This document shows, piece by piece, positions 19,939-30,273 of a stretch of DNA of 31,668 nucleotides (position 1 is the first letter of the stretch; each line of letters begins with the position of its first letter). A program made the translations under genes and the position numbers. Source of the DNA: an uncultured Dethiobacter sp. (GTDB lineage Bacteria; Bacillota; Dethiobacteria; DTU022; UBA8154); assembly GCA_964419485.1 (NCBI GenBank), contig CAYQQF010000001.1:1-31668 (forward strand), written 5' to 3'. The notes below the pieces were generated by a model. That model was not told where the DNA came from and searched no databases. It saw nothing but the letters and a program-made list of their open reading frames with translations.

Positions 19939-20331
19939 ATGGACGATTATCTTACTAAAATTATTTTCCGCTATATTTTACTTTTTATCCTGGTTTACGG
20001 AGCGTATATTATTCTTCATGGCCATCTGTCACCGGGAGGCGGTTTTGCCGGAGGCATGGTTATGGGCATGGGAATGATTTTATATTTTTTAATTTTTGGT
20101 CTTGGTAAAGCGAAGTTCCGGCGTTTGCCCATGGATGTAGCAATTGTCGTTATCGGTATCGGAGGGTTTCTGGAAGGAATTAAATTTGTACTGCCCCATG
20201 AACACGGACCGATAGGTCTTCCCGGGACGTTATTCAGCGTGGGGATTATCAGTGTGGTAAATTTTGGCATTGGTTTACTGGTGGCCAGCACAGTGCTGAG
20301 CATCTTTTACCTTCTTGGCGGGGAGGCGTAA
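19939..20331 (+). CDS. mnhB: Mrp/Mnh subunit B (MbhF-like)
   Basis: HGHLSPGGGFAGG MnhB signature; 4 TMs; 130 aa. Confidence 0.88.
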   Translation: MDDYLTKIIFRYILLFILVYGAYIILHGHLSPGGGFAGGMVMGMGMILYFLIFGLGKAKFRRLPMDVAIVVIGIGGFLEGIKFVLPHEHGPIGLPGTLFSVGIISVVNFGIGLLVASTVLSIFYLLGGEA

Positions 20332-20332
20332 A

Positions 20333-20695
20333 ATGAGCACTTCAATTATGATGACGAACTATCCTTATGTTGTTGCAGTGATATTGTTTTGCCTGGGGTG
20401 CCTCTGCATTCTGACGCAGCATAATTTAATCAAAAAAGTGATTGGGATTAATATTATGGAAACGGGTATTTTCCTTTTCTTTATTGCCGTTGGGAATATC
20501 CGGGGCGGTATTGCCCCTATTTATGATCCGGCGTTGCCGGAAGGTATCCTGTATATTAATCCTCTGCCATCTGCACTTATGCTTACCGGGATCGTAGTCA
20601 GCTTCAGCGTTACAGCCTTTGCCCTGGCAATTATAGTCAAGCTTTATCATTTTTACGGTACTATCTACGCCCCGGATATTATGCGGATGAGGTGA
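20333..20695 (+). CDS. mnhC: Mrp/Mnh subunit C (MbhG-like)
   Basis: NLIKKVIGINIME, NPLPSALMLTGIVV; ATG 20333 just after the mnhB stop. Confidence 0.92.
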   Translation: MSTSIMMTNYPYVVAVILFCLGCLCILTQHNLIKKVIGINIMETGIFLFFIAVGNIRGGIAPIYDPALPEGILYINPLPSALMLTGIVVSFSVTAFALAIIVKLYHFYGTIYAPDIMRMR

Positions 20696-20702
20696 CAAAG
20701 GA

Positions 20703-27605: not shown

Positions 27606-28466
27606 TTGTCTAATATTAGGGATATTAAACGGCGTATCCGGGCTATTAGCAATATCCAGCACGTTACCGGGGCGATGAAGATGGTGGCAGCGGCCAAGCT
27701 GCGCCGGGCCCAAAGTCAGGTTTGGGCAGCTCGTCCCTATGCGCAGAAAATAACAGATGTGGCAGGGCGTTTAGCCTCAGCGCCTAATGCCAACATGCTT
27801 CCCCTAACAACTGTACGGGAAGTTAAAAAAACAAGCTATGTTTTGATTGTCGGAGATCGGGGCTTAGCCGGGGCATATAACGCCAATCTTATCCATTTAA
27901 CAGAGGATTGTATCAGGAAAGAGGAGAAGCCTGCTGCTTTAGTGATTGTAGGCCGCAAGGGTGTACAGTATTTCCGTCAGCGCTCTATGGAGATCCTTAA
28001 CTATTATGTAGACATTGGGGATTATCCTGACCTATCCCTGGCGCGGCAGCTGGCCCGACGGCTTATGGAGATTTTTTTAAACGGACAGGTTGATGAAGTA
28101 AACCTGGTTTACGCCCGTTTTTATTCAGCGCTTCGCCATGTTCCTCAGGTGGAAAGGCTTTTGCCCATACAGACTCCTTCGCTGGAAGGAGTAGAGAAAA
28201 GTGACTATCTTTACGAACCGGAGCCTTCTGCGGTGCTGGAGGCTATATTGCCCCGTTATTGTGAGATAAAAGTGTACCAATCCCTGTTAGAGGCCAAGGC
28301 AAGCGAACTTAGCGCCAGAATGGTAGCCATGGAAGGCGCTACAAAAAATAGCAGTGAAATGATTGAGAATTTGACCTTGTCTTTCAATAAAGCCCGTCAG
28401 GCCGCCATAACCACTGAACTACTGGAAGTGGCAAGCGGCGCTGAAGCTTTGAAGGCCCAGGGGTAG
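27606..28466 (+). CDS. atpG: F1 ATP synthase subunit gamma
   Basis: IK.RI..I.N...[40 protein letters not shown]. Confidence 0.97.
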
Positions 28467-28480
28467 AGGAGGGACATGAA

Positions 28481-29872
28481 ATGAACTCAGGAAAAGTAGT
28501 ACAGGTTATTGGACCGGTAGTGGATGTGGAGTTTCTTGAAGGGGATGTACCCGATTTATATAATGCCCTGGTAATACAGGAAAAGCAGATCGATCTTACC
28601 ATGGAAGTTATGCAGCACTTGGGTGATAAATTAGTCCGATGTGTGGCCTTATCCTCTACCGATGGCTTACAAGGAGGCATGAAGGCCGTAGATACGGGAT
28701 CGCCTATCAAAGCTCCAGTAGGTGCTTCTACGCTGGGAAGGTTATTCAATGTGTTGGGTAAAGCTATTGATGAAAAGGGTACATTGGAAGCGGAAGAGTG
28801 GTGGCCCATTCACCGTAAGCCCCCTTCATTTGACGAGTTAACGCCTTCTACGGAGGTTCTGGAGACGGGCCTTAAGGTCCTGGATCTTTTGGCGCCCTTG
28901 CCCAAGGGCGGTAAAATGGGCCTTTTTGGAGGGGCCGGCGTAGGAAAGACAGTTCTGATCATGGAGCTTATCCGCAATGTGGCCTATGAACATGGAGGAT
29001 ACTCTGTCTTTGCCGGCGTGGGTGAGCGTACAAGGGAAGGCAATGACCTTTACCGGGAGATGACTGAATCCGGGGTTATCGACAAAACAGTGATGATCTT
29101 CGGCCAGATGAATGAGCCACCGGGAGCCCGTATGCGGGTAGGATTAACCGCGTTAACTGCTGCTGAATATTTCCGGGATAAAGGAGGCCAGGATGTCCTG
29201 CTCTTTATTGATAATATTTTCCGCTTTGTGCAAGCAGGATCTGAGGTTTCCGCTTTGCTGGGCCGTATGCCCTCCGCCGTAGGTTACCAGCCAACTCTGG
29301 CTACGGAGATGGGTCAACTGCAGGAACGAATTACTTCTACAAAAAAAGGTTCTATCACTTCGGTTCAGGCCATCTATGTCCCTGCTGACGACCTTACAGA
29401 TCCGGCTCCGGCCACTACTTTTGCTCATTTGGATGGGACGATAGTGCTTTCCAGACAGTTGGCTGCCCTGGGTATTTATCCTGCTGTGGACCCCCTGGAT
29501 TCAACTTCACGCCTTCTCGATCCCCTTGTTGTTGGGGAGGAACATTATGAGGTAGGCAGGGGTGTTCAGCGCATTCTTCAGCGTTATAAAGAGCTCCAGG
29601 ACATCATTGCCATTTTGGGTATAGAAGAGCTTGCGGAAGAGGATAAAATTATCGTGGCTCGTGCCCGGAAGATTCAGCGTTTTCTCTCCCAGCCTTTCCA
29701 TGTGGCTGAAGGCTATACCGGAATGCCGGGTGTCTATGTGCCCTTAAAGGATACTATTAAAGGGTTTAAAGAGATCCTTGCCGGTCAGCATGACGATATA
29801 CCGGAAGAAGCTTTTTATATGGTGAGCAACATAGAGGAGGCTATAAAGAGGGGACAGGAGCTAAATCAATGA
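28481..29872 (+). CDS. atpD: F1 ATP synthase subunit beta
   Basis: [36 protein letters not shown] (DELSEED loop). Confidence 0.99.
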
Positions 29873-30273
29873 GCACGTTAAAATTAGCGGTTGTTACTCC
29901 CCAGAGAAAGGTTTTAGCGGAAGAGGTGGAGAGCGTTACTGCTCATGGAACAGAGGGCTATCTGGGTATCCTCCCCCGGCATGCGCCTCTCCTTACTGCC
30001 TTAAAGCCTGGTGTGTTCTATTATCGTAAGGCTGGGGGTAAGACAGAGTGCATGGCAGTATCCGGAGGTTTTTTGGAAGCTGGACCTGATATAGTAATTA
30101 TCCTGGCGGATATGGCTGAGCTTTCGTCGGAGATTGATGTGCAAAGAGCTCGCCGCGCCAAAGAGAGAGCAGAAAAGCGTCTGAGGGAGCGCCCTCCAGA
30201 TTTGGATGTGACCCGGGCTGAATCTGCTTTGCAAAGGAGCATCGTCAGGTTAAAGGCTGCAGGAGCAGAATAA
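29869..30273 (+). CDS. atpC: F1 ATP synthase subunit epsilon
   Basis: [20 protein letters not shown]; C-terminal helices keep IDxxRA and the Arg residues used for ATP binding in Bacillus PS3 epsilon. Confidence 0.96.

What the first reader, a model, noticed from the sequence alone, without database searches (positions are those of the whole stretch)
19939..30273. Antiporter-ATP synthase super-operon: an MbhA-H-like Mrp module coupled to an H+-type F1Fo
Seen: eight tightly coupled antiporter genes followed after only 85 bp, with no convincing terminator, by atpBEFHAGDC; atpI/atpZ are absent from their usual place before atpB; the c subunit has E57-A-L...F62, not the Na+ signature E-S/T-T...Y. 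Known: Firmicute atp operons normally start with atpI and lie near upp/murA, not after coaX; Mrp complexes interconvert Na+ and H+ gradients. Inference: a co-expressed bioenergetic unit in which the module converts a Na+ gradient (or output of a redox module encoded elsewhere) into local proton motive force for ATP synthesis, possibly as a physical supercomplex. That would suit low-energy syntrophic or alkaliphilic growth.
Basis: partly seen in the sequence, partly recalled or inferred. Interest (0 to 1): 0.72.

Follow-up and report, generated by a model that had tools for sequence, protein, structure and literature searches.

The report
Mrp antiporter genes abutting ATP synthase
An ordinary sodium/proton antiporter operon and an ordinary proton-driven ATP synthase operon really do sit end to end in this uncultured Dethiobacter-like bacterium, but close relatives carry either one without the other at the same spot, so this is a local gene rearrangement, not evidence for a dedicated combined machine.

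Summary
Eight tightly packed Mrp/Mbh-type genes (19939-23914) are followed after 85 bp by atpBEFHAGDC (24000-30273). No promoter-like or terminator-like site lies between them. The c subunit has an H+-type site (E57-A-L-T-L-F62).

The junction is real. Contigs from a sludge and a landfill metagenome bridge it without mismatch, and a second species (AtpB 85% identical) has the same junction.

atpZ and atpI are not lost. They lie behind atpC, so the atp operon is circularly permuted. It was cut exactly where atpI normally overlaps the atpB ribosome-binding site.

The linkage is not conserved:
- Both operons occupy a variable slot between coaX and clpB in this family.
- Two congeners have mrp only.
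- A sister species has the same permuted atp block and no mrp.
- One genus has coaX-atp only; another has coaX-atpZI..C-(antisense gene)-mrp.
- Two genera carry both operons unlinked.

No hydrogenase or complex-I redox module was found in the genome (89% complete).

Read-through co-transcription is plausible but untested. Obligate coupling or a supercomplex has no support.

The scan noted a hydrogenase/Mrp-ATP synthase adjacency before, on other DNA (Omnitrophota).

Interest is low to moderate.

The parts
18934..19761 (+). coaX (type III pantothenate kinase); conserved left anchor of the variable slot
   Evidence: PF03309, E 1e-77. The Fhs-ECF_S-CoaX synteny is kept across the family.
19939..20331 (+). 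mrpB-like gene (MnhB domain; MbhF equivalent)
   Evidence: PF04039, E 1.7e-18. 85-88% identical to congeners G001 and G003.
20333..20695 (+). mrpC (NuoK-like; MbhG equivalent)
   Evidence: PF00420, E 5e-23. The ATG at 20333 follows a GGGGAGG site.
20703..22187 (+). mrpD, the only large antiporter-like subunit in this cluster (MbhH/MbsH-like)
   Evidence: PF00361, E 1e-61. Best solved relatives are 6U8Y_H (3.9e-63) and 6CFW_H (5.2e-57), ahead of bacterial MrpD chains.
22209..22742 (+). mrpE (MbhA equivalent)
   Evidence: PF01899, E 7e-32. Best solved relative is 6U8Y_A, 5.9e-24.
22735..23001 (+). mrpF (MbhB equivalent)
   Evidence: PF04066, E 5e-11.
23001..23372 (+). mrpG (MbhC equivalent)
   Evidence: PF03334, E 2e-23. 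The ATG at 23001 follows an AGGGAGGGGAGG site.
23373..23618 (+). MbhD-like small subunit (part of the C-terminal region of MrpA)
   Evidence: PF13244, E 4e-14.
23615..23914 (+). MbhE-like small subunit; last gene of the mrp module
   Evidence: PF20501, E 1.7e-8. The ATG at 23615 follows a GGGGAGG site and overlaps the mbhD stop. DNA homology to congeners ends at 23895.
23915..23999 (+). mbhE-atpB spacer: the left junction of the atp block, containing the atpB ribosome-binding site
   Evidence: - No promoter-like or terminator-like site, and the fold is not better than shuffles.
- Homologous to the 90-bp spacer of L066, and its last part (about 34 nt by blastn; about 60 nt in the MAFFT alignment) to the region upstream of atpB in L062.
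- Bridged by independent metagenome contigs.
24000..24686 (+). atpB (Fo a subunit), with the stator arginine in ..SLSLRLFANMFGE..
   Evidence: PF00119, E 1.6e-52. Arginine motif at residue 171.
24707..24931 (+). atpE (Fo c subunit), H+-type ion site
   Evidence: PF00137. Sequence ..[14 protein letters not shown].. with Q24, E57, A58, L59, F62. Same motif in all type-1 relatives.
24969..25975 (+). atpF (b subunit, 24969-25475) and atpH (delta subunit, 25472-25975)
   Evidence: PF00430 and PF00213.
26014..30273 (+). atpA (26014-27540), atpG (27606-28466), atpD (28481-29872), atpC (29869-30273)
   Evidence: Pfam hits for alpha, gamma, beta and epsilon. Beta subunit has Walker A GGAGVGKT.
30280..30337 (+). 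Strong hairpin just behind atpC; a U-run follows about 25 nt later. Likely end of the mrp-atp transcript.
   Evidence: Folding energy -42.6 kcal/mol, z -5.5, matched by 0 of 200 shuffles.
30301..30984 (.). About 680 bp present only in this organism, with no family match; contains a perfect sigma-70-like site (TTGACA, 18 nt, TATAAT) at 30381-30410
   Evidence: - Homology to the sister locus L062 stops at 30300 and resumes at 30985.
- No similarity to relatives or to the rest of the genome.
- No Pfam hit.
- Promoter-like site found.
31048..31224 (+). Small CxxC..CxxC (zinc-ribbon-like) ORF. It travels with the atp operon in the family; here it runs the same way as atpZ, whereas elsewhere it converges on atpC.
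   Evidence: Weak zinc-ribbon hits. Homologues lie next to atpC in G009, G027, G114, G112, G103, G104, G106, G018 and L062.
31251..31520 (+). atpZ, displaced to behind atpC
   Evidence: PF09527, E 1e-15. 55-74% identical to the atpZ that precedes atpI-atpB in relatives.
31507..31668 (+). atpI, first 54 codons; continues on contig C217 to 127 aa, then a terminator and a convergent clpB
   Evidence: A 19-nt exact overlap with the end of C217 gives a complete ORF. The same order atpZ-atpI-<-clpB lies on one contig in L062.

Best explanation
These are two ordinary, independently functional operons that lie side by side in a variable chromosomal slot between coaX and clpB in Dethiobacter-like bacteria (class Dethiobacteria).

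**The two operons**
- The first is a stand-alone 'group 3' Mrp cation/proton antiporter. It has the Mbh A-H subunit set, one MrpD and no NuoL-like N-terminal part of MrpA.
- The second is an H+-coupled F1Fo ATP synthase.

**The rearrangement**
- In this organism and at least one related species, the atp structural genes were cut from their leader genes atpZ-atpI. The cut lies exactly where atpI overlaps the atpB ribosome-binding site.
- atpB now sits 85-90 bp behind mbhE, upstream of the original mrp terminator. atpZ-atpI trail behind atpC.

**Inferred consequences**
- atpB-C is at least partly transcribed by read-through from the mrp promoter.
- Mrp exchanges Na+ and H+ for pH and Na+ homeostasis. 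In doing so it links the Na+ circuit (Rnf, a V-type ATPase with a Na+ signature) to the H+ circuit used by F1Fo.
- This is a general physiological link, not a dedicated coupled machine.

**Shown versus inferred**
- Shown: the gene content, the reality of the junction, the permutation breakpoint, and the presence/absence pattern among relatives.
- Inferred: co-transcription, ion specificities and the direction of antiport.
For: **Gene families:**

**Junction is real.** Metagenome contigs from two studies bridge it. A second organism, L066 (AtpB 85% identical), has MrpD..MbhE, 90 bp, atpB, with a homologous spacer.

**Insertion point.**
- DNA homology to congeners G001 and G003 ends at 23895.
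- In those genomes mbhE is followed by a terminator (AAAAGCCGGAGGG..CCGGCTTTT) and a convergent clpB.
- In G000 the like terminator and clpB follow atpI on C217.

**Permutation breakpoint.**
- Canonical atpI ends ..IIRGKEG*, overlapping the atpB Shine-Dalgarno site.
- G000 atpI ends ..LIYKGTPK*.
- Both ends of the block share AATTTATAA.

**Polymorphism of the slot.**
- L062 is a sister species (Fhs 93%, ClpB 90% identical). It has CoaX, 408 bp, atpB..C, znr, atpZ, atpI, <-clpB and no mrp.
- G001 and G003 have CoaX-mrp-<-clpB and a different F-ATPase elsewhere.
- G102 and G018 have CoaX-atpZ-atpI-atpB.. and no MrpE was found in them.
- G112 and G114 have CoaX-atpZI-BEFHAGDC-<-znr-mrpBCD.
- G103-G106 and G009 have both operons on separate contigs.

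**Trees.** The mrp genes and CoaX of G000 group with G001+G003. Its atp genes group with G018, from another genus.

**No redox partner.** No significant hit for the NuoH, NuoD or NuoB families in the genome.

**Ion circuits.**
- Rnf is present.
- The V-type K subunit has S58-Q59..Y62, Q100 and E129.
- The F-type c subunit lacks the Na+ ligands.
Against: **Points favouring some selection for proximity**
- Adjacency of this atp type and this mrp type turns up in two genera, in two different orders.
- The mrp->atpB junction is kept in two species that differ by about 15% in AtpB.

**Limits of the data**
- No transcript data could be obtained: no RNA run was listed.
- All relatives are fragmented MAGs, so some 'unlinked' calls rest on contigs of limited length.
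- The genome is 89% complete, so the absence of a redox module or of a second atp operon is not proven.
Confidence: 0.72

Rival explanations
1. This is a selected co-expression unit. Mrp runs Na+ in and H+ out, as proposed for the stand-alone Mrp of P. furiosus. That turns the Na+ gradient made by Rnf and the V-type ATPase into proton motive force for the H+-type F1Fo. Fusion into one transcript fixes the ratio of the two complexes.
For: - No promoter-like or terminator-like site in the 85-bp spacer.
- The junction is kept in a second species.
- A second adjacent arrangement, atp->mrp, occurs in G112 and G114.
- The genome combines Rnf, a Na+-signature V-ATPase and an H+-signature F-ATPase.
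- A published model has P. furiosus group 3 Mrp bringing Na+ in and H+ out (PMC8415708).
Against: - A sister species keeps the same permuted atp block without mrp.
- Congeners keep mrp without this atp block.
- Two genera have both operons unlinked.
- In G112 and G114 an antisense gene and about 600 bp separate atpC from mrpB.
- Adjacency is equally well explained by common residence in one variable slot.
Confidence: 0.18
2. This is a physical Mrp-F1Fo supercomplex with local proton hand-over between the antiporter and the a/c interface.
For: Only the gene adjacency. No tool result bears on contacts between the complexes.
Against: - No extra or fused subunit, linker or unusual extension appears in MbhE, the a subunit or the c subunit. 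Their lengths and motifs are standard.
- The atp block is 78-92% identical at protein level in a sister species that has no mrp beside it.
Confidence: 0.03
3. The adjacency is an assembly artefact: a chimeric join of two contigs in a metagenome-assembled genome.
For: The genome is a MAG of 235 contigs. The contig ends inside atpI.
Against: - Independent contigs from sludge and landfill runs span 23474-24120 and 23805-24148 without mismatch.
- The same junction occurs in a different organism.
- The right-hand junction, atpI-terminator-clpB, is on C217 and on one contig in L062.
Confidence: 0.02

Closest known systems
Stand-alone group 3 Mrp of Pyrococcus furiosus (mrpEFGBB'CD; Haja et al. 2021, PMC8415708)
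   Same: - Same subunit set: E, F, G, an MbhD/MbhE-type piece, a MnhB-type piece, C, and a single D.
- No NuoL-like MrpA part and no redox module.
- The nearest solved chains are the P. furiosus MBS and MBH Mrp modules.
   Different: - The gene order is circularly shifted: B-C-D-E-F-G-MbhD-MbhE.
- MbhD and MbhE are separate genes.
- The host is bacterial.
- Many relatives add two more antiporter-like genes after mbhE.
- This genome has five such genes at another locus, C6.
Canonical Firmicute atp operon, atp(Z)IBEFHAGDC, with an H+-type c ring
   Same: - All eight structural genes are in the standard order.
- atpZ and atpI are present in the genome.
- The c-ring site AFMEALT is as in H+-type rings (from memory, like the cyanobacterial and chloroplast c subunits).
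- Relatives such as G009, G027, G103-G106 and L068 have the canonical order.
   Different: - atpZ-atpI lie behind atpC.
- atpI has a changed C-terminus.
- atpB has lost its own upstream region and abuts mbhE.
Mrp as adjuster of the Na+/H+ ratio for the ATP synthase in Methanosarcina acetivorans (recalled from the literature, not read here)
   Same: The same idea of a functional link between Mrp and ATP synthase through shared ion gradients.
   Different: That link is physiological, not genomic. Nothing here shows more than such a general link.
Earlier scan finding e1-1000027: a group-4 hydrogenase/Mrp module directly upstream of F1Fo in an Omnitrophota genome
   Same: An Mrp-type membrane module runs co-directionally into a complete atp operon.
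   Different: That case includes a hydrogenase redox module and is reported as shared by related species. Here there is no redox module and the layout varies among close relatives. I did not re-test that finding.

Membership tests
Mrp (CPA3) antiporter, group 3 / Mbh-type membrane module | Presence of MrpB, C, D, E, F and G plus MbhD/MbhE-type domains in one cluster | tested here: met
   All eight Pfam families score above their curated cut-offs.
Mrp (CPA3) antiporter, group 3 / Mbh-type membrane module | No full-length MrpA (no NuoL-like N-terminal domain fused to the MbhD/E region) in the cluster | tested here: met
   The cluster has only one Proton_antipo_M gene. Congeners G001 and G003 have the same eight genes and then clpB.
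Mrp (CPA3) antiporter, group 3 / Mbh-type membrane module | Na+(K+)/H+ antiport activity | not testable with these tools
   Needs vesicle assays or complementation of an antiporter-deficient strain.
Mbh/Mbs/Mbx-type respiratory complex (Mrp module plus redox module) | NuoB/MbhJ, NuoD/MbhL and NuoH/MbhM homologues present | tested here: not met
   PF01058 and PF00346 gave no hit. PF00146 gave only a sub-threshold hit inside an antiporter-like gene. The genome is 89% complete.
F1Fo ATP synthase (F-type) | Subunits a, c, b, delta, alpha, gamma, beta and epsilon; c-ring carboxylate; a-subunit arginine; beta-subunit P-loop | tested here: met
   Pfam hits. E57 in the c subunit. RLFANMFGE in the a subunit and GGAGVGKT in beta.
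Na+-translocating F-type c ring (Ilyobacter/Propionigenium type) | Q32, E65, S/T66, T67 and Y70 (I. tartaricus numbering, recalled) | tested here: not met
   Q24 and E57 are present, but A58, L59 and F62 replace S/T, T and Y. A relative, G008, does carry ..AVAETTGIY...
N-ATPase (atpDCQRBEFAG) | Gene order beginning with atpD-atpC, presence of atpR, absence of delta | tested here: not met
   The order is BEFHAGDC with delta (OSCP) present. The PF09527 gene is followed by an atpI-like gene and clpB, not by atpR-atpB.
Alkaliphile-adapted F1Fo (Bacillus pseudofirmus OF4 type) | c subunit with AxAxAxA and PxxExxP motifs (recalled) | tested here: not met
   The c subunit has GCGIGQG and AFMEALT, without the prolines.
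Single mrp-atp transcription unit ('super-operon') | One transcript spanning mbhE-atpB; conservation of the junction across lineages that have both operons | tested here: inconclusive
   - No promoter or terminator signal in the spacer, but no RNA run was available.
- The junction is kept in two species.
- It is absent from a sister species and from other genera.

The most novel reading that the evidence does not exclude
In this lineage the ATP synthase structural genes have become passengers of the mrp operon. Their expression is then set by the promoter and regulators of a Na+/H+ antiporter. The cell thus makes the H+-F1Fo only when Mrp is made. This would amount to a hard-wired coupling of smf-to-pmf conversion with ATP synthesis that is being tried out within one genus of alkaliphilic anaerobes.
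Probability: 0.12. Interest if true: 0.55.

Novelty: new variant of a known kind. Interest (0 to 1): 0.3.

Why it matters
If the read-through is real, essential ATP synthase genes here depend on the promoter of another operon. Their usual leader genes atpZ and atpI are expressed separately. The naturally occurring sister states (mrp only, atp only, both) would then form a ready-made comparison. With them one could ask whether co-expressing a Na+/H+ antiporter with an H+ ATP synthase helps at high pH or low energy. As it stands, the finding mostly shows that gene adjacency in one MAG is weak evidence for a coupled machine. It also maps a variable coaX-clpB slot in Dethiobacteria.

Tried and rejected
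1. **Chimeric assembly.** Rejected: independent contigs bridge the junction and a second organism shares it.
2. **Second, tandem atp operon starting at atpZ/atpI.** Rejected.
   - The genome has one F-type a and one F-type c gene.
   - The other ATP-synt_ab hits are V-type (C73), FliI (C56) and one unexamined (C80).
   - atpI is followed by a terminator and clpB.
3. **N-ATPase.** Rejected on gene order and the presence of delta.
4. **Na+-type c ring.** Rejected on motif.
5. **Redox partner for the Mrp module.** No significant NuoH, NuoD or NuoB hit was found.
6. **Spacer hairpin as a conserved terminator or attenuator.** The folds are no better than shuffles, and the second species folds differently.
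7. **Same-contig comparison across the class, using MrpE against atpB.**
   - It showed no shared contig except in one complete genome, where the genes are about 480 kb apart.
   - It missed G112 and G114 because of contig breaks, so it cannot be read as showing absence.
9. **The 680-bp stretch behind atpC found only in this organism.** No family, no repeat and no relative matched.
10. **P0011, a 3.3-Mb record.** Its atp region breaks off after atpF, so it looks like a patchwork scaffold and was not used.
11. **A single simple event deriving the G000 order from the G114-like order.** None fits. At least a transposition (or circle re-insertion) plus an inversion of the small zinc-ribbon gene is needed. 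The order of events is unresolved.
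Full report
**What is there**

The window is a whole contig (C1) of a metagenome-assembled genome of 1.8 Mb in 235 contigs, 89% complete.
- Pfam assigns 19939-23914 to eight Mrp/Mbh families, in the order MnhB, NuoK-like MrpC, one Proton_antipo_M (MrpD), MNHE, MrpF, MnhG, MbhD, MbhE.
- Pfam assigns 24000-30273 to atpB, E, F, H, A, G, D and C.
- When starts are chosen next to Shine-Dalgarno sites, the mrp genes touch or overlap (-8 to +21 nt). 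The mbhE-atpB gap is 85 nt.
- The consensus scan finds no promoter-like site on the + strand between 23224 and 25854, and no terminator-like site in the spacer.
- The spacer folds no better than shuffled sequence.
- The c subunit reads ..[25 protein letters not shown].. (Q24, E57, A58, L59, F62). The carboxylate is present, but the Ser/Thr, Thr and Tyr ligands of Na+-binding rings are missing.

atpZ (31251-31520, PF09527) and the start of atpI (31507-31668) lie behind atpC on the same strand.
- The last 19 nt of the window are the exact reverse complement of the last 19 nt of contig C217.
- Joining the two contigs gives a complete 127-aa AtpI, then a terminator, then a convergent clpB.
- The genome holds only one F-type a gene and one F-type c gene.
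- Of the other ATP-synt_ab hits, two are V-type (C73), one is flagellar FliI (C56) and one on C80 was not examined.

So there is one atp operon, and it is circularly permuted: BEFHAGDC, about 770 bp, a small zinc-ribbon ORF, atpZ, atpI.

**Is the junction real?**

Yes.
- Logan contigs from a sludge run and from a landfill run of another study cover 23474-24120 and 23805-24148 without a mismatch.
- A 3.2-kb contig from a different organism (AtpB 85%, MrpE 80% identical) carries MrpD..MbhE, 90 bp, atpB.
- Its spacer is homologous to the one here.

**Where the arrangement comes from**

The organism belongs to the class Dethiobacteria. Its nearest named relative is an 'uncultured Dethiobacter sp.' MAG. 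The block SpoIIE-TilS-Hpt-FtsH-Fhs-ECF_S-CoaX is conserved across the family, and clpB closes the locus on the other side. Between coaX and clpB the content varies:

| Lineage | Content between coaX and clpB |
|---|---|
| Congeners G001, G003; also G006, G017 | mrp only |
| Ten other genomes | mrp plus two further antiporter-like genes |
| G102, G018 (another genus) | coaX-atpZ-atpI-atpB..; no MrpE found in these genomes |
| G112, G114 | coaX-atpZ-atpI-atpBEFHAGDC, an antisense zinc-ribbon gene, then mrpB, C, D |
| L062 (sister species; Fhs 93%, ClpB 90%; shares the CPBP-like gene) | coaX, 408 bp, atpB..C, zinc-ribbon ORF, atpZ, atpI, <-clpB: the same permuted block, no mrp |
| G000 and the L066 organism | mrp followed by the permuted atp block |

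G103-G106 and G009 have both operons, on separate contigs with non-matching flanks.

The breakpoints are sharp.
- DNA homology to G001 and G003 stops at 23895.
- In G001, mbhE is followed by a terminator (AAAAGCCGGAGGG..CCGGCTTTT) and then clpB.
- In G000 the like terminator follows atpI. The atp block therefore sits between the mbhE stop and the mrp terminator.
- In canonical relatives atpI ends ..IIRGKEG*, and its last codons overlap the atpB ribosome-binding site (GGAAAGGAGGGATAG).
- In G000 atpI ends ..LIYKGTPK*. The motif AATTTATAA occurs both there and just before the atpB ribosome-binding site.

Trees give a mixed signal.
- The mrp genes and CoaX of G000 group with its congeners.
- Its alpha, beta and gamma subunits group with G018 of another genus.
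- Congeners G003 and G004 carry a deeply different F-ATPase.

This fits either gain of the block by recombination from a related lineage or differential loss. I could not decide between the two, and no single simple event explains the order.

**What the parts are**

- The Mrp module has the subunit set of the stand-alone group 3 Mrp of P. furiosus (mrpEFGBB'CD; PMC8415708), with the gene order shifted.
- Its MrpD and MrpE are closer to the MBS and MBH chains (6U8Y, 6CFW) than to the bacterial Mrp structures.
- No NuoB, NuoD or NuoH homologue was found in the genome, so a hydrogenase or complex-I partner is not in evidence.
- Five further antiporter-like genes lie in tandem on contig C6 behind folC. 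They are conserved there in congeners, and whether they join this Mrp is unknown.
- The genome also has Rnf.
- It has a V-type ATPase whose K subunit carries a Na+-type signature. This agrees with the Na+ V-ATPase described for D. alkaliphilus (PMC5609068).

**How it most likely works**

- Mrp exchanges Na+ and H+.
- F1Fo uses H+.
- Rnf and the V-ATPase probably handle Na+.

Mrp thus links the two ion circuits in the general way already discussed for other anaerobes. Because atpB has lost its own upstream region and lies before the old mrp terminator, read-through from mrp is the simplest way for it to be expressed. The strong hairpin behind atpC (z -5.5) would end that transcript. atpZ-atpI would be expressed separately, from the sites at 30381-30410 or 30990-31018. 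All of this is inference; no RNA run could be found.

**Verdict**

The adjacency is genuine and is shared by two species. It is nonetheless one state of a polymorphic locus. The same atp block works without mrp next door, the same mrp works without atp next door, and other genera keep the two operons apart. That argues against an obligate unit or a supercomplex and leaves optional co-expression as the most that can be claimed.

The arrangement is a new variant in operon organisation, built from known parts. I did not re-test that note.

Noticed in passing
window 30301-30984: About 680 bp behind atpC that the sister locus L062 lacks. It has no family or repeat match. It contains a perfect TTGACA-18-TATAAT site with an extended -10 at 30381-30410 and short broken ORFs on both strands. 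Its origin is unknown.
   Followed up: partly
G000 contig C6, 2519-11558: Five antiporter-like (Proton_antipo_M) genes in tandem (516, 640, 490, 527 and 706 aa) directly behind valS-folC. No small Mrp subunits and no redox genes accompany them. The same cluster exists in congeners G001 and G003 and in G006 and G017. In other genera two related genes follow mbhE instead.
   Followed up: partly
window 17442-18767 (- strand): A CPBP/Rce1-like membrane protein gene between the ECF S component and coaX. It is present in G000, L062, G016, G012, G010, G111 and G114 but absent in congeners G001 and G003, so this side of coaX is variable too.
   Followed up: no
window 23026 and 24932: In three sludge runs, single contigs match the window only from 23026 or from 24932 onward. 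Before those points each carries 255 nt of AT-rich foreign sequence. These could be a structural variant, a mobile element or a related strain. The runs may not be independent of one another.
   Followed up: no
L062:9594-10000: The 408-bp coaX-atpB spacer of the sister species holds a terminator-like hairpin and then four or five direct repeats of about 13 nt (TTATATTCAATCC). This is a possible regulator-binding array in front of atpB.
   Followed up: no
L025 (G002:C13) 8475-11773: A same-genus genome has atpZ, atpE, atpF, atpB, atpE, atpF, atpH...: a duplicated c-b gene pair flanking atpB, with identical c sequences.
   Followed up: no
c subunits in L024, L027, L028 and the window: The family carries at least three kinds of F-type c subunit. 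One is H+-type (AFMEALT), found in G000 and relatives. One has a full Na+ signature (..AVAETTGIY.., G008). The third reads ..ALAEAAAIY.. without the glutamine (G001, G003, G004).
   Followed up: partly
G000 contig C9, 6009-6912: RnfD matches in two overlapping frames (6009-6653 and 6631-6912). This indicates a frameshift or an assembly error in the rnf cluster.
   Followed up: no
mrp tree: Genomes placed in one genus (G016 versus G112, G113 and G114) carry two clearly different variants of the coaX-linked mrp (MrpB 76% versus 54-56% identical to G000). This suggests exchange of the whole locus between lineages.
   Followed up: partly
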